A stretch of DNA of 60,208 nt from a virus (taxonomy: Duplodnaviria; Caudoviricetes), in the IMG/VR virus record IMGVR_UViG_3300046374_000002, positions 1 to 60,208 of that record, one strand, 5' to 3'. Numbering within the stretch: the stretch's first letter is position 1; every line of letters begins with the position of its first letter. Made by a program: the position numbers and the translations under genes. Positions 1,131-26,579 of the stretch are shown piece by piece. A model generated the notes under the pieces. The model was given only the letters and a program-made list of their open reading frames with translations. It ran no database searches and had not been told where the DNA came from.

Positions 1131-1310
1131 TAATCTCCATGTCATGGGCATTATCCTTTCTCATCTTATACGCGCGTTAGCAAAATGTGACCTATTCTCA
1201 TCCCCATCTCTTTTATATATATATACTATATAATAACACTATATATACTCTCTAATTACAATATCAGTCTAAGGAAGGAGATAGGTCACACGTCCATAAT
1301 ATGGAGATTA
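1131..1310. other. candidate replication origin: nested inverted repeats around an AT-rich core
   Basis: TAATCTCCAT (1131) / ATGGAGATTA (1301) and TGTGACCTAT (1186) / ATAGGTCACA (1281) flank (TA)n-rich DNA just downstream of the primase and helicase genes. Confidence 0.45.
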
Positions 1311-1325
1311 TTAGTATAATCATAG

Positions 1326-2891
1326 TCAATTTCCTGAAGAATGTGTCCCTAGCCTTTCAGAATGTAACCTCCTAATCTTAGAATTTTGGGATAATAGCCA
1401 GAAGCCATAGTCAGAAAGTGTCACACCTTTATAACAATATGGCCTACCGTGCTTTCTAGTGTGAACTCTATATTCTGAAAGTGTCGGGAATGATTTCTTA
1501 ACTAACCTAAAAAACGTATCATAACTAAACCTAACTGATTCGTTTTTCTCCCTACAAAAACAGTTGAAAACCTGCCAGATTTCAGCTTTCGGCAAAGACT
1601 GATGGGTCGCATTCTCTATACACTGCTCAAAGAATAGCCCGATTATGTTATTACTAACCTTGAATGATTGCATAGCTTTTTGACTAACTAACGATCCCTT
1701 AGACAATTCAATCTTAGCACATAGCTTTTTTAACCTCCTGACTAGATAGCTAATTATTCCATCCTTTTGTTCTAATAGCTTTTCGCGCAACATTAGGTCC
1801 ATGTTGTCTTCAGTGAATTTGATAGTGAATGGTATAATCCGTACTCTCCTATCATCCGCGTCTGTTCCATACTTAAACATAGGCTGATGATTCGAACTAC
1901 TAATTAGCTTGACGTTAGTTTGCATAGTAAAACCCTCCATATACAAACGTGCGGTATCGAAAGGTTCGCCACTAACTATTGACTTGAAATTAGAGTTATC
2001 CTCTATCACTCTATTCTCTGTTTCAGTCGAAATGTTAATCAACTTACCTGCTAGTCTCCATAGATGCTTACCATTATCAGCACCACAAATCTGATGTAAT
2101 CGAAGCGCACTCCTAGTTTCCTCACCAAATGCACTAGCAATAGCTTCAGTTAACACACTCTTTCCGTTGCTACCATTTCCTATACAAAATAATGCACACT
2201 GAAATCTACTATCTGGCAGCAAAGCACTAGTACAAAAGTCTAAAAATAGTACTCTATCTTCCTTTCTAGGTAGTACTTCGCACAAGGTCTGCTTGAAATC
2301 CTCGTCATTAGTACCATCATTATTCTCTCTATCTTCATAATAGCACCCAGAAAGGCTAGTAGTGAACATATAATCCGGGCTATGTTCCAACTTTCTAACT
2401 ACTTTTCCACTCTCATTATCAATTTGTAGTACACAATTAGGGAAGTTTAGCAGGTATGACCCGGATGATTTCATAACGTTACTATTTAATGCCCACACAA
2501 ATGACTCCCCTTCCCTCAATTGACGTTGAGCTTCGATTGTTCGCAGAACATCTTCGGCTCTTCTATGATTTCTATTTTCAGGTAGTTGAACTTCCCATGC
2601 AATAGGTAGGTAATTATTTCTATCACCTAACTTCCATTTACATCCATCGAATACATACCACTTATTACCTATACATTTGATAGGTTTACCTATCTTTTTC
2701 TCTACTTCTGCGGCTAGTCTTGCAGCAGTCGATGCACCTCCTATCTCACTCACTCTCTGTTTTGCATGTTCAGTAGTTAACCTAACTTTTCGTTTGTTAG
2801 TACGTCGCTCTTGTCGCGGAGATATAAAATCTTCCGCGAATATGTTAGTATGATTAACCTTACCATTGCCGCTTACGTCTTTCATAGACAT
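1326..2891 (-). CDS. D5/P4-family primase-associated SF3 helicase
   Basis: D5_N-like LLNFPNCVL; Walker A GNGSNGKS; KSIVSGEP; SSNHQP; RRVRIIPF. Likely start is 2885 (ATGA overlap with the primase stop). Confidence 0.9.
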   Translation of the reverse strand: MSMKDVSGNGKVNHTNIFAEDFISPRQERRTNKRKVRLTTEHAKQRVSEIGGASTAARLAAEVEKKIGKPIKCIGNKWYVFDGCKWKLGDRNNYLPIAWEVQLPENRNHRRAEDVLRTIEAQRQLREGESFVWALNSNVMKSSGSYLLNFPNCVLQIDNESGKVVRKLEHSPDYMFTTSLSGCYYEDRENNDGTNDEDFKQTLCEVLPRKEDRVLFLDFCTSALLPDSRFQCALFCIGNGSNGKSVLTEAIASAFGEETRSALRLHQICGADNGKHLWRLAGKLINISTETENRVIEDNSNFKSIVSGEPFDTARLYMEGFTMQTNVKLISSSNHQPMFKYGTDADDRRVRIIPFTIKFTEDNMDLMLREKLLEQKDGIISYLVRRLKKLCAKIELSKGSLVSQKAMQSFKVSNNIIGLFFEQCIENATHQSLPKAEIWQVFNCFCREKNESVRFSYDTFFRLVKKSFPTLSEYRVHTRKHGRPYCYKGVTLSDYGFWLLSQNSKIRRLHSERLGTHSSGN

Positions 2892-3965: not shown

Positions 3966-4013
3966 AAAAAAAAAGATCCGCAGCCAGCAGCATGTTGCTG
4001 CTAGCTACGGACC
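3966..4013 (-). terminator. rho-independent terminator ending the early operon
   Basis: GGTCCGTAGCTAGCAGCA / TGCTGCTGGCTGCGGATC stem followed by T9. Confidence 0.85.
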
Positions 4014-4021
4014 CATTATGT

Positions 4022-4384: not shown

Positions 4385-4419
4385 TTCGTTTTAGTTAGTT
4401 TCAATTGACTATCATAGTC

Positions 4420-4478
4420 AACTGATTACTAGTAGGCTAGGAGGATTGAACTCCTAGCCAATTACCAGTGTATCAGTT
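4420..4478 (-). ncRNA. intergenic hairpin, class I (YUGAU-ANN-CURG...CYAG-YA-AUCAG) with UUCAAUC loop
   Basis: AACTGATACACTGGTA..GGCTAGGAG TTCAATC CTCCTAGCC TACTAGTAATCAGTT. Confidence 0.55.
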
Positions 4479-4487
4479 AGCTAAAGC

Positions 4488-5141
4488 TTAGGCTGCTTGC
4501 TTCAGAACTTGCAGCTTAGTAGCTTCAATTGCTTTCTTACCTTCCTGCTTTTGAGTGTAGGCTCGGAACCACTTGTTAGTGAAACTGTTAGTTTCGTCAA
4601 CCAACTGCTTTGCAGTCAGTTCATTGTTAGCAACTAGGTAATCTTCCGCTCTACCTTGCCATGCTGTAAGAACTTCTCTGACAAAGTTCTCAAAGCTATA
4701 GTTAATGCTTACTGCGGCAGGCTTACGATTACCATTCGGCCTAGCCTTACTCTCTTTCTTAGTATCCCGCAACTGCTTACCAGTTGGCTTGCTAGTCTTA
4801 CTCTGCTTCTTAGCAGCTTTCAACTTTTCCCTAGCTTCACCTTCTGTTTTAGGTAGTTCCTTTTCAGAAGCACCAGCTTCCTTCATAGACTTAACTACCT
4901 TGGCGGCATCCATTAATTGATAACCACGACCGCGGGTTATATTCCATTTCTCAGTACAATACGCTTCGAACGTATCATGTGTTCCACGATATAACTTATT
5001 GTCGCGAATTGTTATTAGTGCTTCACCAACTGCTAGAAAGGTTTTCAAGCCTTGCTTAATAGTTGCTTCACATTTGATTAACAATCCCTTTTCGTTAACA
5101 GTTAATTTTCCGACTACAGGTTTAACAGTAATGGTTTTCAT
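4488..5141 (-). CDS. conserved phage protein (DUF3102-like helical domain, basic C-terminal half)
   Basis: VGEALITIRDNKLYRGTHDTFEAYCTEKWNITRGRGYQLMDAA is a common phage motif. Confidence 0.7.
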   Translation of the reverse strand: MKTITVKPVVGKLTVNEKGLLIKCEATIKQGLKTFLAVGEALITIRDNKLYRGTHDTFEAYCTEKWNITRGRGYQLMDAAKVVKSMKEAGASEKELPKTEGEAREKLKAAKKQSKTSKPTGKQLRDTKKESKARPNGNRKPAAVSINYSFENFVREVLTAWQGRAEDYLVANNELTAKQLVDETNSFTNKWFRAYTQKQEGKKAIEATKLQVLKQAA

Positions 5142-5195
5142 AGTTAGTTAGTTAGCTATAGCATTATGCTATAGTCAGTAGGTTTTCAAGCTACT

Positions 5196-5230
5196 GAATC
5201 CTCTGCTAGCATTTAACTAGCAGAGACTTC
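5196..5230 (-). ncRNA. intergenic hairpin, class II (GAAGUCUCUG...CAGAGGAUUC)
   Basis: Outer 10+10 nt identical to the copy at 7551..7584; inner stem differs but still pairs. Confidence 0.55.
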
Positions 5231-5231
5231 A

Positions 5232-5579: not shown

Positions 5580-5618
5580 AGTTATTAGTTAGTTTGTTTC
5601 AAGTTAGCATTATTGCGA

Positions 5619-5672
5619 ACTGATTGCTGGCTATGAAATCATAACGTTATGATCCATAACCAGACTATCAGT
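5619..5672 (-). ncRNA. intergenic hairpin, class I, capped by the dispersed palindrome
   Basis: ACTGATAGTCTGG...CCAGCAATCAGT. Confidence 0.5.
5639..5652. repeat. dispersed palindrome, copy 3
   Basis: Exact 14-mer within atgaaaTCATAACGTTATGAt. Confidence 0.95.
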
Positions 5673-5678
5673 CAACTG

Positions 5679-5993
5679 TTAGTTCAAGCTGAGTCTAAGA
5701 TTGACTGTCACTTTAACAGCAGCAAAGATAGGTTGAACTACCTTTTCCCCTGTCTCTCTGTTCTCAGCATGAAAGCAATCATACACTAGAAATATAGTCG
5801 TGCAGTGTCCATCTACCTTTTCACTCAGTATAACCGGATCAAAGTTGATAGACGTTGCATCGACAAATGCGTCAAGAGCCAATTTCTTAGTATCTGGCTG
5901 CAATGACATAGATAGATAATCTTCCCACCTTTCGTTCCTAGCAATTACGATTCCATTTTCGAAAACTTCAGTACAGATTTGATATGTTTGCAT
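5679..5993 (-). CDS. hypothetical protein
   Basis: The track start (6020) falls inside the hammerhead CUGAUGA core; the ATG at 5993 follows the (AACT)3 leader. Confidence 0.65.
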   Translation of the reverse strand: MQTYQICTEVFENGIVIARNERWEDYLSMSLQPDTKKLALDAFVDATSINFDPVILSEKVDGHCTTIFLVYDCFHAENRETGEKVVQPIFAAVKVTVNLRLSLN

Positions 5994-6012
5994 TAGATAG
6001 TTAGTTAGTTTT

Positions 6013-6071
6013 TGAATCATCAGTTAGTGTCTTACACTAATATGCTAGGGTTTGAACCTAGCATTTCATCA
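6013..6071 (-). ncRNA. type II hammerhead ribozyme (downstream of ardC)
   Basis: TGAT-GAAA-TGCTAGG(TTCAAAC)CCTAGCA-TA-TTAGTGT(AAG)ACACTAA-CTGATGA-TTCA; full core; AUA cleavage triplet; stem II short with a U-U closing pair. Confidence 0.75.
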
Positions 6072-6947
6072 TTTGTCATCATCATCAAGCTTGCCTAAGA
6101 TATAGCTTGCAGCCTTTTCCGCACGACTAGCGCAAGTGACTACTGCTTTGGCATCACTAGCTAGGAATTGCTTCCAATGGCTAATGTAGCTTGCAGCATT
6201 CTTGATAGTAGGCTTGCTAATTCCAGCAACTTCGCAGAGAAATGCACTAGCAAACTCCGCAACTAGTTCTTCTCTAGAGTATTTCTCTTTCTCCATAGTA
6301 GTTCCTAGTTCCCTTGCTAATCTGGATTCATGTCCTGTACTATGTGCCAGCTCATGGAACAATGTTGAATAGTAAGCTTCCGAAGTCTTGAACTGCTTGA
6401 CTCCGTTTATACATACTTCATCCTTTGCAGGATAATAGTAAGCATAGGGTTTATTGCTAGGCTTAATTGCTGGCTTGTTAGGCATGTTCTTGACTATCAA
6501 GTTAGGTTTAACCATTTCTCGATTGCCATTATCCTTTTCCTCCAACCTAACATGTTCCAAGTTCTCACATTGTGTAACATTGAACACATTATAGTAACGT
6601 AGGATTGCCCTAGTAGTTTTTTCATTTGTAGCCTTGTCGATACTCTCAACTTTGCTCCAGAATGTGATCATACTAGCTTTTTCGCCTTTCCTAACATTAC
6701 CGCCAAGCTCTTTAGCTTGGTTGAATGTTAGGTAGTAAGGACTAGGGAATTTCTGCCACAGTAGCCAGCGATTAATTCCGCTGTACTCTCGATTGCTAAT
6801 CAAGTTTCTAGGCATAGCACCTTGTTCACCCTCTAAATAGGGTTGTTGCCAAGGGATAGTGCCATTATCTAACATCTCACAGATTCGATCTGTGATGATT
6901 TGGTAGACGTTTACTCGATCATTGCTATTTTGATTATATGTTGTCAT
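6069..6947 (-). CDS. ardC: ArdC-family antirestriction / ssDNA-binding protein with zincin-like domain
   Basis: PWQQP, YSGIN, YLTFNQA, VRKGEK, YNVFNVTQ, FHELAHSTGH..RL.R, YSREELVAE, ASYISHW motifs. Confidence 0.92.
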   Translation of the reverse strand: MTTYNQNSNDRVNVYQIITDRICEMLDNGTIPWQQPYLEGEQGAMPRNLISNREYSGINRWLLWQKFPSPYYLTFNQAKELGGNVRKGEKASMITFWSKVESIDKATNEKTTRAILRYYNVFNVTQCENLEHVRLEEKDNGNREMVKPNLIVKNMPNKPAIKPSNKPYAYYYPAKDEVCINGVKQFKTSEAYYSTLFHELAHSTGHESRLARELGTTMEKEKYSREELVAEFASAFLCEVAGISKPTIKNAASYISHWKQFLASDAKAVVTCASRAEKAASYILGKLDDDDK

Positions 6948-6977
6948 AGTTAGTTAGTTAGTTTGTTCTGATAAGTT

Positions 6978-7036
6978 AGGCTCATCAGTACTGCTATTAG
7001 CAGTAGATACTAGGGATAGAACCTAGTATTTCGCCT
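6978..7036 (-). ncRNA. type II hammerhead ribozyme (upstream of ardC)
   Basis: AGGC-GAAA-TACTAGG(TTCTATC)CCTAGTA-TC-TACTGC(TAATA)GCAGTA-CTGATGA-GCCT; all core nucleotides and three stems intact; AUC cleavage triplet. Confidence 0.92.
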
Positions 7037-7242
7037 TATGCTTTCAAGATGTCTGTTTCCATATTCATGGCATCGCGAATAGGCTCAAGCCTATTCATAA
7101 CATCTTTAACTTGTACAGTTGGATCATTCCAGAATTTGGAAGATTGTAGATAGGAAATAAGCTCAAGCATAGCAGCTTGCGCTTTCTCGTTATACTCTCT
7201 AGCTTCCAGTTTGATCTCTTGAAGTTTGGTAATATAGTTCAT
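7036..7242 (-). CDS. hypothetical protein
   Basis: 68 aa ORF with (AACT)n leader. Confidence 0.7.
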   Translation of the reverse strand: MNYITKLQEIKLEAREYNEKAQAAMLELISYLQSSKFWNDPTVQVKDVMNRLEPIRDAMNMETDILKA

Positions 7243-7274
7243 AGTTAGTTAGTTTCTTTTTCAGCATTTAGTAA

Positions 7275-7313
7275 GCTGATTACTAGCCTTTCGTAAAAGG
7301 CTAGGATATCAAC
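7275..7313 (-). ncRNA. intergenic hairpin, class I
   Basis: GTTGATATCCTAGCCTTT(TACG)AAAGGCTAGTAATCAGC. Confidence 0.55.
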
Positions 7314-7510
7314 TAGGAAGTATAACGAAGCTTTGCGGCATCATATACTTTCCACCAACCAGCATCTAGCCAGAAAGCTAATTCTTCCGAATCCATATCG
7401 GATAGGAAGTACATTATCAAGCCTAAGCTATAGGCTCTTTCAGCTTCCGTTGAGAAGCTTTTCTTTGTCCACGTTAGAAGATGGTTGTAAGAGAATTTAT
7501 CGAGTAGCAT
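7313..7510 (-). CDS. hypothetical protein
   Basis: 65 aa ORF with (AACT)n leader. Confidence 0.65.
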   Translation of the reverse strand: MLLDKFSYNHLLTWTKKSFSTEAERAYSLGLIMYFLSDMDSEELAFWLDAGWWKVYDAAKLRYTS

Positions 7511-7550
7511 ATAAGATAGTTAGTTAGTTAGTTTCTGTGAATCATTCACA

Positions 7551-7584
7551 GAATCCTCTGATCTATTGCTAGATCAGAGACTTC
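7551..7584 (-). ncRNA. intergenic hairpin, class II
   Basis: GAAGTCTCTGATCTA(GCAA)TAGATCAGAGGATTC; GNRA loop. Confidence 0.55.
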
Positions 7585-7606
7585 GATTAATGATCGATTG
7601 TTAGTG

Positions 7607-10383: not shown

Positions 10384-10393
10384 TTTGTTAATT

Positions 10394-10426
10394 AGGAAAG
10401 GTTAGGAATAGAACCTTGCCTTTCCT
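10394..10426 (-). ncRNA. intergenic hairpin with T-loop-like UUCUAUU loop
   Basis: AGGAAAGGCAAGG(TTCTATT)CCTAACCTTTCCT. Confidence 0.45.
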
Positions 10427-10435
10427 GTTAATTTG

Positions 10436-17751: not shown

Positions 17752-18054
17752 TTAGTACCTTTTACCTTTCCGTACTGCTTTCGCATAGCTCGTAGGATCT
17801 TCCTCCCTTTCGGAGTTAGTGGCATATGTATCACCTCCTTCATCAATATAACGTAAATGTCTACCTAACAAATAGTATAAATCTCCTGTCATTCCTAATG
17901 CATCGAATATCTTAGCTGGAATATTCTCTTTCTCTGATAGTATAGCATATAGCACATGCTCTACTCCTACATATCCATGTCCTCTATTAGATGATTCCTT
18001 TTCTGCTATTTCTAATATCTTGTTAAGTCTAGGTGTCATTCTCGTTCTGTTCAT
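17752..18054 (-). CDS. stand-alone Clp N-terminal (Clp repeat) domain protein
   Basis: MTPRLNKILEIAEKES...GHGYVGVEHVLYAIL matches the ClpA/B/C N-domain repeat. Confidence 0.85.
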   Translation of the reverse strand: MNRTRMTPRLNKILEIAEKESSNRGHGYVGVEHVLYAILSEKENIPAKIFDALGMTGDLYYLLGRHLRYIDEGGDTYATNSEREEDPTSYAKAVRKGKRY

Positions 18055-18074: not shown

Positions 18075-18171
18075 TTTGGGGAGTAGGAATTCCACCTACC
18101 AAGCTTGTGGGTTATCTCAATCTAAGTCGAATAGTTGAATAAAGCTAGCATGTAGACAACATGTCCCCAAA
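18075..18171 (-). ncRNA. cloverleaf-like intergenic structured RNA
   Basis: TTTGGGGA/TCCCCAAA closing stem; CATGT/ACATG hairpin; AGCTT/AAGCT arm; GTAGG(TGGAATT)CCTAC T-arm-like hairpin. Confidence 0.5.
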
Positions 18172-26483: not shown

Positions 26484-26579
26484 CGGGAAGGGCAGGAATT
26501 GAACCTACTAGTTTAGCGGATGAGGCTTTACTAATGCGCCACTAACAAACTAACTGTTCTGCTAGTCGCTAACCTTCCC
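26484..26579 (-). ncRNA. tRNA-like RNA (acceptor stem and T-arm, non-canonical interior)
   Basis: GGGAAGG...GTAGG(TTCAATT)CCTGC-CCTTCCC-G; starts about 15 nt downstream of a -10 box; no canonical D or anticodon arm; no CCA. Confidence 0.65.

What the first reader, a model, noticed from the sequence alone, without database searches (positions are those of the whole stretch)
6013..7036. ardC is bracketed by two type II hammerhead ribozymes
Seen (minus strand): 6978..7036 reads AGGC-GAAA-[7-bp stem III]-UC-[6-bp stem I]-CUGAUGA-GCCU. 6013..6071 reads UGAU-GAAA-[7-bp stem III]-UA-[7-bp stem I]-CUGAUGA-UUCA. The stems differ in sequence but both pair, and each ribozyme begins at the stop codon of the preceding gene. 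Established: this is the conserved hammerhead core (CUGANGA, GAAA, NUH). Cleavage is predicted between 7006/7005 and between 6041/6040, giving 5'-OH and 2',3'-cyclic phosphate ends. Inference: double cleavage would excise a ~965-nt monocistronic ardC mRNA from the early transcript. Those ends could be joined by an RtcB-type ligase, so the antirestriction mRNA may be stabilised or circularised. The downstream copy has U-U instead of the usual R-Y pair closing stem II and may be slower or regulated.
Basis: partly seen in the sequence, partly recalled or inferred. Interest (0 to 1): 0.85.

Follow-up and report, generated by a model that had tools for sequence, protein, structure and literature searches.

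The report
Two hammerhead ribozymes bracket phage ardC
Two small self-cutting RNA motifs (hammerhead ribozymes) sit immediately before and after the anti-restriction gene ardC of an uncultured soil phage and probably cut its message out of a longer transcript, a layout described for phage anti-restriction genes in 2011, so this is a good new example and not a new kind of system.

Summary
On the minus strand, 7036..6978 and 6071..6013 each carry the full type II hammerhead core (GAAA, A15.1-U16.1, non-G at 17, CUGAUGA), an 8-bp stem III and a 7-bp stem I. They are the only two such motifs in the 60-kb phage record. Only 1 of 300 shuffles gave a comparably stemmed hit. The two copies differ by compensated changes in 8 of 19 pairs. 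Soil-metagenome contigs hold variant copies next to other genes that keep the core and the pairing. The upstream copy matches Rfam Hammerhead_II end to end but below threshold (25.3 vs 37 bits). The downstream copy has no Rfam hit and a U10.1-U11.1 mismatch, a natural variant already reported as active (PMC3088659). The most likely role is cutting the early transcript into a hairpin-capped, single-gene ardC mRNA of 965 nt. Circularisation is not supported: the ends do not pair. Hammerheads flanking single prophage genes, including ardA, were published in 2011, and this scan has found similar phage hammerheads on other DNA. Verdict: new member of a known kind. No cleavage or RNA data were available.

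The parts
6978..7036 (-). HH-1, a type II hammerhead motif upstream of ardC. It has a canonical core, G10.1-C11.1, stem II 4 bp, stem III 8 bp with a T-loop-like loop (UUCUAUC), and stem I 7 bp. The predicted cut is between 7006 and 7005.
   Evidence: Read. Descriptor hit. Rfam RF02276 at 25.3 bits over the full model, below the gathering score of 37. The 59-nt minimum-energy fold is exactly the three-way junction. A variant copy in other contigs changes only N7 and turns one stem I pair from U-A to U.G.
6013..6071 (-). HH-2, a type II hammerhead motif downstream of ardC. The core is complete, but stem II starts with a U10.1-U11.1 mismatch followed by 3 bp. Stem III is 8 bp (loop UUCAAAC) and stem I is 7 bp. 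The predicted cut is between 6041 and 6040.
   Evidence: Read. Descriptor hit with stem II scored 0. No Rfam hammerhead hit. Stems III and I fold, but stem II is not predicted. U10.1-U11.1 has a natural, active precedent. A variant copy keeps a 7-bp stem I through 3 substitutions and 4 indels (my hand reconstruction).
6069..6947 (-). ardC, 292 aa, the anti-restriction protein. It has the ssDNA-binding N-terminal domain and the zincin-like metallopeptidase domain, and the HExxH motif is kept.
   Evidence: Pfam ArdcN and MPTase-PolyVal. PHROG 7245. 6719 homologues at E<=1e-10 among 8000 scored candidates. H198, E199 and H202 are invariant in alignment A1.
6968..6988 (-). Alternative 8-bp hairpin (CUGAUGAG with CUUAUCAG, 5-nt loop). 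It sequesters the catalytic box of HH-1 and excludes stem II.
   Evidence: It is the minimum-energy structure of the 86-nt and 965-nt folds. In the variant copy, the N7 U-to-A change and the 1-nt deletion at 6972 together keep 6 bp of this hairpin (hand reconstruction).
6948..6967 (-). Unstructured (ACUA)n leader ahead of the ardC start codon (6947..6945). There is no Shine-Dalgarno-like purine run.
   Evidence: unpaired in the 965-nt fold.
5994..6012 (-). (ACUA)n leader ahead of the likely start (5993..5991) of the next gene.
   Evidence: the ORF listing starts this ORF at the in-frame AUG inside CUGAUGA (6020). By analogy with the other leaders, I take 5993 as the start; this is inference.
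7036..7242 (-). 68-aa ORF of unknown function. Its UAA stop overlaps the first base of HH-1.
   Evidence: no family.
5679..6020 (-). Downstream ORF of unknown function: 113 aa as listed, or 104 aa if it starts at 5993.
   Evidence: no family.
3974..4014 (-). Terminator-like hairpin (19-bp stem followed by a run of U). It probably ends the gene block that contains ardC.

Best explanation
Both elements are cis-acting type II hammerhead ribozymes in one minus-strand early gene block of an uncultured soil phage. The block runs from the HNH gene through two small ORFs, ardC and several small ORFs, to the terminator at 4014..3974.

As the polycistronic RNA is made, each ribozyme folds and cuts itself after position 17 (C7006 and A6041). 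Because the type II layout closes stems III and I with loops, each cut has two effects:
- The upstream RNA ends in the 8-bp stem III hairpin with a 2',3'-cyclic phosphate.
- The downstream RNA begins with a 5'-hydroxyl inside the 7-bp stem I hairpin, followed by an open (ACUA)n leader and the start codon.

Two cuts would release a 965-nt, single-gene ardC mRNA with a hairpin at each end. Its stability and translation would then be uncoupled from the neighbouring genes, without any need for a host nuclease.

What is shown: motif anatomy, uniqueness in the genome, compensated stem changes, and conservation of core and pairing in variant copies.

What is inferred: that the RNA is made as one transcript, that both copies cleave (HH-1 about 0.85, HH-2 about 0.6), and that the hairpin and 5'-OH ends protect the mRNA. 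The last point rests on general knowledge of 5'-end-dependent RNase E and RNase J and of 3' exonucleases, recalled and not tested here.
For: 1. Anatomy. Both copies have the GAAA and CUGAUGA core boxes, the A15.1-U16.1 pair, a non-G at position 17 and three helices in type II order.
2. Chance. Only 2 hits occur in the window, against 1 of 300 shuffles with stems >=6/>=6. There is no third copy with filters off.
3. Covariation between the copies. 37 of 38 cells pair. 8 of 19 pairs changed on both sides, including 5 of the 7 stem I pairs. Sliding the partner strand by 1-3 columns drops pairing to 26-44%.
4. Natural variants.
   - Contigs in 2 of the 4 runs laid align only to the HH-1 region (6949/6977..7037), with unlike flanks. 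Of their 3-4 substitutions, the table lists two: N7 U-to-A, the one free core position, and a stem I pair from U-A to U.G.
   - A contig in 1 of the 4 runs aligns only to 5997..6067. It rebuilds stem I to another 7-bp helix and, by the listed differences, leaves GAAA, stem III and CUGAUGA unchanged (only 3 of its 9 substitutions are listed).
5. Rfam. HH-1 matches RF02276 end to end, and its 59 nt fold into the hammerhead junction as the minimum-energy structure.
6. The U10.1-U11.1 start of stem II is a reported natural, active variant (PMC3088659 section 8).
7. Precedent. Clustered hammerheads flank single genes in prophages. Three such arrangements cleaved in vitro, and the A. tumefaciens set flanking ardA also cleaved in vivo in E. 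coli (PMC3088659).
8. An unrelated high-GC viral lineage (records G030 and G031, ArdC 39% identical) has an RF02276 hit of 46.7 bits. It starts right after a stop codon and ends 24 nt before ardC. A second hit (35 bits) lies 3.2 kb further on.
9. The fold of the excised RNA has terminal hairpins and an open leader.
10. No terminator-like site with a long stem lies between the two motifs. The scan did list consensus promoter-like matches (minus strand at 6947..6918) and a weak 5-bp terminator-like site at 7179..7164, at numbers near the shuffle expectation.
Against: - There is no experimental or RNA evidence. No RNA run holds this DNA (not informative either way).
- Both copies fail Rfam's curated threshold: HH-1 scores 25.3 against 37 bits, and HH-2 has no hit.
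- I found no loop I / 3'-tail pseudoknot of 4 or more pairs by eye in either copy. Most type II hammerheads have one, so cleavage at cellular Mg2+ could be slow.
- HH-2's stem II is a mismatch plus 3 bp and is not predicted to form.
- With its natural 3' flank, the best fold of HH-1 buries CUGAUGAG in a competing 8-bp hairpin.
- A single transcript across both sites is assumed. No promoter for the block was identified by the scan.
- The pairing of ardC with catalogued ribozymes is rare. Of 80 ArdC-bearing viral records, 2 (one lineage) have RF02276 at E<=0.01. Of 40 loci scanned against all of Rfam, 2 have any ribozyme. These searches also miss the window's own copies, so the counts are lower bounds.
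Confidence: 0.65

Rival explanations
1. Only the upstream hammerhead is active. The downstream copy is a decaying or very slow duplicate that now serves mainly as a pair of structural hairpins. In that case ardC mRNA gets a defined 5' end but stays joined to the downstream genes.
For: HH-2 has U10.1-U11.1 followed by a 3-bp stem II that is not predicted to form. It has no Rfam hammerhead hit, even in a 111-nt search, and I saw no pseudoknot by eye. Perreault et al. initially rejected hits with a mispair next to the core (methods passage). In the G030 lineage a hammerhead precedes ardC but none follows it directly.
Against: All core bases of HH-2 are intact. The variant copy of HH-2 in another context keeps GAAA, stem III and CUGAUGA and rebuilds a 7-bp stem I; that is not expected of a decaying relic. 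U10.1-U11.1 is a reported natural variant and the best tolerated mispair.
Confidence: 0.2
2. The two elements are mainly module boundaries. They would be repeated structured spacers (protective hairpins, sites for a host or phage RNase, or recombination substrates for swapping gene cassettes), and ribozyme catalysis would be incidental or absent.
For: Other gaps of the same gene block also hold two adjacent hairpins followed by an (ACUA)n leader, but with no hammerhead core (7606..7511, 7312..7243, 5231..5142, 4487..4385). The best such hit to my model scores 12.5 bits. In the closest viral relative (L082, ArdC 55% identical), ardC is bracketed by exactly two copies of a different repeated structured element. 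Its flanking genes are unrelated to those of the window. Variant hammerhead copies sit next to other genes in other contigs.
Against: A hairpin-only or DNA-level role does not explain why both copies and both variants keep the single-stranded core boxes, with the only listed core change at the free position N7. Nor does it explain why stem I changes are compensated while the sequence drifts. A cassette role and catalysis are not mutually exclusive.
Confidence: 0.08
3. One reading: after double cleavage, the 5'-OH and 2',3'-cyclic-phosphate ends of the ardC RNA are joined, by an RtcB-type ligase or by hammerhead reversal, into a circular and more stable mRNA.
For: The end chemistry would be right for RtcB (established biochemistry, recalled). 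Perreault et al. name circular or spliced products as a formal possibility for clustered hammerheads.
Against: The ends cannot rebuild a hammerhead. The stem II strands of the excised RNA (GCCU and UGAU) give one Watson-Crick pair and one wobble out of 4 positions (hand reading). The 965-nt fold shows no end-to-end helix, and each end sits in its own hairpin. Perreault et al. did not detect circular or spliced products. No RNA data were available here.
Confidence: 0.04

Closest known systems
Clustered hammerhead ribozymes flanking single genes or short gene blocks in prophages, including the Agrobacterium tumefaciens triple arrangement around ardA (Perreault et al. 2011, PMC3088659; passages and section 8 read)
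   Same: Cis hammerheads lie in intergenic gaps of a phage transcription unit and bracket an anti-restriction gene. The inferred role is processing a long transcript into single-gene mRNAs. The U10.1-U11.1 start of stem II is also described there.
   Different: The gene here is ardC (ssDNA-binding metallopeptidase type), not the DNA mimic ardA. My library searches found no paper that treats hammerheads together with ArdC: of the 3 hits, none looked relevant by title and abstract start, and I did not open them. There are two ribozymes, not three. I saw no loop I / tail pseudoknot. Stem III carries a conserved T-loop-like hairpin. Cleavage is untested here.
Rfam RF02276, Hammerhead_II
   Same: Same core, same circular permutation (stems I and III capped, stem II open), and a full-length alignment of HH-1 to the model.
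   Different: HH-1 scores 25.3 bits against a gathering score of 37. HH-2 is not detected. The conserved 3' tail of the model is deleted in the alignment. The stems are AU-rich.
RNase III processing of phage T7 early mRNA, which releases the 0.3 (Ocr, anti-restriction) message with terminal hairpins (recalled knowledge; no call, no paper read)
   Same: It works alike: an early polycistronic RNA is cut between genes, and the anti-restriction message becomes a separate, hairpin-ended mRNA.
   Different: The cut there is made by a host protein enzyme in a double-stranded site. Here it is made by the RNA itself, leaving 5'-OH and 2',3'-cyclic-phosphate ends. This is not a family relationship.
Hammerhead-bounded circular RNAs (viroids, retrozymes; PMC5680766 and PMC7229834 seen as listing and abstract start only)
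   Same: Two hammerheads delimit an RNA of about 1 kb.
   Different: In those systems the two ribozyme copies are the same, so the ends rebuild one hammerhead and are ligated. Here the two copies have incompatible stem II strands and no terminal pairing.

Membership tests
Hammerhead ribozyme, type II | Core box C3-U4-G5-A6-N7-G8-A9 (CUGANGA) | tested here: met
   CUGAUGA is present at 6988..6982 and 6023..6017. The variant copy has CUGAAGA, a change at the free position N7 only.
Hammerhead ribozyme, type II | G12-A13-A14 followed by the A15.1-U16.1 pair, and a non-G at the cleavage position 17 | tested here: met
   GAAA is present at 7032..7029 and 6067..6064. U16.1 and H17 are U7007/C7006 and U6042/A6041.
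Hammerhead ribozyme, type II | Three helices around the core, with stems I and III closed by loops and stem II open | tested here: met
   Stem III is 8 bp and stem I is 7 bp in both copies. Stem II is 4 bp in HH-1. 37 of 38 cells pair, and 8 of 19 pairs are compensated.
Hammerhead ribozyme, type II | Standard pair at 10.1-11.1 (usually G-C) | tested here: inconclusive
   HH-1 has G-C, so the feature is met. HH-2 has U-U, so it is not met, but this exact mismatch is a reported natural, active variant.
Hammerhead ribozyme, type II | Tertiary contact aligning stems I and II, in most type II members a pseudoknot of at least 4 bp between loop I and the 3' tail | tested here: not met
   I saw no 4-bp pseudoknot by eye in either copy without opening stem I (reading). 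Perreault et al. describe it for a majority of members, not all. Loop I keeps U-A-A-N-A in both copies, which may mark another kind of contact; this is untested.
Hammerhead ribozyme, type II | Score at or above Rfam RF02276 gathering threshold (37 bits) | tested here: not met
   HH-1 scores 25.3 bits. HH-2 has no hit. There were no hits in the whole-window scans or the genome search.
Hammerhead ribozyme, type II | Site-specific self-cleavage giving 5'-OH and 2',3'-cyclic phosphate | not testable with these tools
   No RNA run holds the sequence. A bench assay is needed.
ArdC anti-restriction protein | N-terminal ArdC ssDNA-binding domain plus C-terminal zincin-like metallopeptidase domain with HExxH | tested here: met
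   PF08401 (3.1e-30) and PF18818 (2.3e-32). PHROG 7245. H198, E199 and H202 are invariant in A1.

The most novel reading that the evidence does not exclude
Anti-restriction genes of this ArdC clade may travel as self-contained expression cassettes, bounded by interchangeable RNA-processing elements.

In the window the bounds are two hammerheads. In the closest viral relative (L082) they are exactly two copies of an uncatalogued structured RNA at equivalent positions. That RNA would then be a new self-cleaving or nuclease-directing element.

In addition, the sequence-conserved T-loop-like hairpin of stem III becomes the 3' end of the upstream mRNA after cleavage. It could act as a tRNA-like 3' cap, read by host tRNA enzymes or protected from exonucleases.
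Probability: 0.1. Interest if true: 0.7.

Novelty: new member of a known kind. Interest (0 to 1): 0.3.

Why it matters
If both ribozymes cut, this phage makes the message for its anti-restriction protein independently of any host RNase. That suits a gene that must work in the first minutes in whatever host the DNA enters.

It extends the published link between hammerheads and ardA to a second, unrelated anti-restriction family, ardC. The same link occurs in a high-GC phage lineage.

It also supplies a compact, AU-rich hammerhead pair without a pseudoknot, one copy of which has the rare U10.1-U11.1 start of stem II. This would be useful for testing how much tertiary support a natural type II hammerhead needs.

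It does not open a new class of system.

Tried and rejected
**Searches for more copies or relatives**
- Pattern scans for this hammerhead type in viral contigs found no true copy. One search gave 0 hits. One search gave 1 hit, L001, which is the T-arm of a tRNA followed by coding sequence, so a false positive.
- The pattern scan of genome contigs gave 0 hits.
- Two blastn searches of the phage collection gave none: the 2-kb region and HH-1 alone.
- ArdC peptide patterns from the single protein found no relative in viral contigs. The alignment A1 then gave 80 viral and 80 metagenome loci.
- The closest ArdC proteins (P0002-P0012, 55-70% identity) lie on contigs that I could not fetch.

**My covariance model R1**
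- R1 is too specific. It gave 1 weak hit (17.8 bits, E=0.082, L081; not a hammerhead core) in the 80 metagenome loci and 0 in the 80 viral loci.
- It misses the Rfam-grade hammerhead of L111, so these blanks say little.

**Scans not done or incomplete**
- A planned descriptor scan of all 160 loci was lost with the script machine.
- The 80 metagenome loci were never scanned with Rfam, and only 40 of the 80 viral loci were.

**Expression**
- No RNA holder is listed for this DNA. This is not evidence either way.
- Stretches without contig cover are not evidence.

**Readings considered and rejected**
- Stem III as part of a true tRNA: ARAGORN finds none at default settings, and no acceptor partner is present.
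- Splicing out of ardC by joining the HH-1 5' product to the HH-2 3' product: the stem II strands UUCA and AGGC give one pair and one wobble out of 4, read by hand.
- The L082 element as a known ribozyme: no Rfam family matches it at E<=10 in a 1.2-kb search, and by eye it does not fit any hammerhead permutation.

**Papers**
- Supplements are closed. Figures S2, S3 and S6 and Dataset S1 of PMC3088659 (the ardA arrangement, core variants and alignments) were not seen. They may already hold ardC-adjacent or T-loop-bearing examples.
Full report
**What the window is.**
The window is a complete IMG/VR virus record of 60,208 bases, with an estimated completeness of 91%. It has 37% G+C, and nearly all long ORFs lie on the minus strand. 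Near-identical DNA occurs in contigs of 12 soil-metagenome runs holding half or more of the sampled words. None of these runs is on record as RNA.

**The observation.**
On the minus strand, 7036..6978 reads as follows.
- AGGC, then GAAA.
- An 8-bp stem III, counting the A15.1-U16.1 pair, with the loop UUCUAUC.
- UC, then a 7-bp stem I with a 3-nt loop.
- CUGAUGA, then GCCU.

Position 6071..6013 has the same layout.
- UGAU, then GAAA.
- An 8-bp stem III with the loop UUCAAAC.
- UA, then a 7-bp stem I with the loop AAG.
- CUGAUGA, then UUCA.

This is the type II permutation of the hammerhead.

The UAA of the upstream 68-aa ORF (7038..7036) overlaps HH-1 by one base. The UGA of ardC (6071..6069) is itself the stem II strand of HH-2.

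The gene between the motifs is a typical ArdC. It has the ArdcN and MPTase-PolyVal domains, matches PHROG 7245, and keeps the HExxH residues.

**Is it more than chance?**
- A strict-core descriptor found only these two sites on both strands.
- In 300 dinucleotide shuffles, loose hits were common: 83 in all, in 70 of the shuffles. Only 1 shuffle gave stems of 6 bp or more on both arms, against 8 and 7 bp twice here.
- A covariance model of the two copies, run over the whole window with filters off, found no third copy. The best other hit scored 13.9 bits.
- The two copies align without gaps. 37 of 38 cells pair, and 8 of 19 pairs differ on both sides, 5 of them in stem I. Pairing falls to 26-44% when the partner strand is slid by 1-3 columns.

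**Rfam.**
Rfam is less kind than the descriptor.
- Nothing reaches the gathering score.
- No hammerhead family appears at E<=10 over the whole window.
- The genome search with RF02276 finds nothing at E<=10 on the record.
- In a 111-nt search, HH-1 aligns to the whole Hammerhead_II model at 25.3 bits, below the cut-off of 37. The model's conserved 3' tail is deleted in this alignment.
- HH-2 gets no hammerhead hit in its own 111-nt search.

**Natural variants.**
I laid the contigs of four soil runs on 5600..7600. This showed contigs that match only the ribozymes and have unrelated sequence on both sides.
- Records 5 (run X10) and 19 (run X12) cover 6949/6977..7037.
  - Their listed differences are N7 U-to-A, which is the one free position of CUGANGA, and a stem I pair changed from U-A to U.G.
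  - There is also a 1-nt and a 4-nt deletion in the 3' flank. The two records carry 4 and 3 substitutions, so one or two are not listed.
  - The different upstream gene again ends in a UAA that overlaps the first base of the motif.
- Record 14 (run X12) covers 5997..6067.
  - By my hand reconstruction from the difference tables, 3 substitutions and 4 indels turn stem I into a different 7-bp helix with the same AAG loop.
  - By the listed differences, GAAA, stem III and CUGAUGA are unchanged. Only 3 of its 9 substitutions are listed, so its stem II cannot be judged.

These copies show selection for the hammerhead fold. They also show that this ribozyme subtype is not tied to ardC.

**How good are the two ribozymes?**
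- HH-1 meets every sequence criterion, and on its own it folds into the three-way junction.
- With its natural 3' flank, however, the best fold pairs CUGAUGAG with CUUAUCAG (6988..6981 with 6975..6968) and loses stem II.
- In the variant copy, the N7 change and the deletion at 6972 together keep 6 pairs of this competing hairpin (hand reconstruction). It may therefore be a selected feature: a switch, or a lock on the cleaved 5' end. This rests on one event.
- HH-2 starts stem II with U10.1-U11.1 followed by 3 bp, and the helix is not predicted to form.
- Perreault et al. 2011 report exactly this mismatch in natural hammerheads and call it the best tolerated mispair (section 8). In their search they at first rejected hits with mispairs next to the core (methods passage).
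- I saw no loop I / 3'-tail pseudoknot of 4 or more pairs in either copy. Most type II members have one.
- Loop I keeps U-A-A-N-A in both copies although the stem differs.

**Context and mechanism.**
- The gaps of this gene block each hold two adjacent hairpins followed by an (ACUA)n leader and the start codon. Only the two gaps around ardC embed those hairpins in a hammerhead core.
- A 19-bp terminator-like hairpin at 4014..3974 probably ends the block. The scan identified no promoter for the block, so a single transcript is an assumption.
- The predicted fold of the excised 965-nt RNA starts with the stem I hairpin at its first base. A second hairpin and an unpaired leader follow, and the RNA ends in the stem III hairpin.
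- The best-supported reading is therefore self-processing of a polycistronic RNA into hairpin-ended units, with ardC as its own unit.
- This works like RNase III processing of T7 early RNA around the 0.3 gene (recalled, not checked here), but without a host enzyme.

**Circularisation.**
- The excised RNA would have to bring the 3' part of HH-1 and the 5' part of HH-2 together.
- Their stem II strands give one Watson-Crick pair and one wobble out of four (hand reading), and no terminal helix is predicted.
- Perreault et al. did not detect circular or spliced products from clustered prophage hammerheads.
- I rate this reading at about 0.04.

**Relatives.**
- ArdC has thousands of homologues.
- Of 80 ArdC-bearing viral records, 2 have RF02276 at E<=0.01. 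These are G030 and G031, one high-GC lineage with ArdC 39% identical.
- In that lineage a 46.7-bit hammerhead begins just after a stop codon and ends 24 nt before ardC. A 35-bit one lies 3.2 kb downstream, and none follows ardC directly.
- Of 40 viral loci scanned against all of Rfam, the same 2 are the only ones with any ribozyme.
- These searches miss the window's own copies, so the counts are lower bounds.
- In the closest viral relative (L082, ArdC 55% identical), ardC is bracketed by the only two copies in that 25-kb record of a different structured repeat, at about 1243..1310 and 2218..2275.
  - It has no Rfam match and no other carrier in viral contigs by pattern.
  - It folds as a long imperfect hairpin.
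  - Its flanking genes are unrelated to those of the window.
- This suggests that ardC is kept as a bounded unit, but it rests on a single relative.

**What is known.**
- Perreault et al. 2011 (PMC3088659; passages and section 8 read) describe multiple hammerheads flanking individual genes in prophages.
- They show cleavage of three such arrangements in vitro. The A. tumefaciens set that flanks ardA also cleaves in vivo in E. coli.
- They note ardA directly downstream of a hammerhead in three Legionella strains.
- My library searches found no paper that treats hammerheads together with ArdC. One search gave 3 hits, none relevant by title and abstract start, and I did not open them. Among the 15 papers listed of 318, only Perreault et al. 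contains the word hammerhead.
- Earlier agents of this scan reached the same verdict for similar phage hammerheads on other DNA.

**Verdict.**
This is a real and tidy pair of type II hammerhead motifs, and a new member of a known kind. Its minor novelties are:
- ardC as the bracketed gene;
- a conserved T-loop-like stem III;
- a possibly selected competing hairpin;
- no pseudoknot.

Interest is 0.3. Nothing here demonstrates cleavage.

Noticed in passing
L082 1243-1310 and 2218-2275 (+): In the closest viral relative (ArdC 55% identical), ardC is bracketed by the only two copies in that 25-kb record of a conserved structured repeat. The repeat is not a hammerhead. It has no Rfam match at E<=10 and folds as a long imperfect hairpin followed by a variable second hairpin.
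   Followed up: partly
window 7606-7511, 7312-7243, 5231-5142, 4487-4385 (-): Other gaps of the same gene block each hold two or three adjacent hairpins followed by an (ACUA)n leader and the start codon, with no hammerhead core. Two of them share a GUCUCUG...CAGAGGAUUC hairpin.
   Followed up: no
window 7023, 6058, 10415, 26505 (-): T-loop-like hairpin loops (GGUUC, four bases, then CC) recur in intergenic RNA on the coding strand. They occur in both hammerhead stems III, in a hairpin at 10435..10384, and in the T-arm of a tRNA-like element. The T-loop label is a sequence resemblance recalled from memory and was not tested.
   Followed up: partly
window 26484-26579 (-): A 96-nt tRNA-like element with a 7-bp acceptor stem and a T-arm. 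ARAGORN calls it only at a lowered threshold (tRNA-Thr, anticodon agt) and not at default settings.
   Followed up: partly
window about 18075-18171 (-): A second element with a closing stem and a T-arm-like hairpin (GUAGG UGGAAUU CCUAC) in the 385-nt gap before the gene that starts at 18054.
   Followed up: no
window, many gaps (for example 49899-49864, 25635-25579, 5678-5580, 3855-3812): The 14-bp palindrome TCATAACGTTATGA recurs in intergenic regions across the genome.
   Followed up: no
window 6020-5991 (-): The AUG inside the CUGAUGA box of HH-2 is in frame with the next gene, so the ORF listing starts that ORF at 6020. The leader pattern points to 5993 as the real start.
   Followed up: no
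L111 2911-2977 (+), same in L112: The Rfam-grade type II hammerhead before ardC in the high-GC lineage has an extra U between A9 and the first stem II pair (CUGACGA-U-GCC pairing with GGC).
   Followed up: no
L001 about 4427-4548 (+): A tRNA-like gene with a long internal insertion, ending in CCA, lies in a 173-kb viral contig. It is not called by Rfam at gathering score.
   Followed up: no
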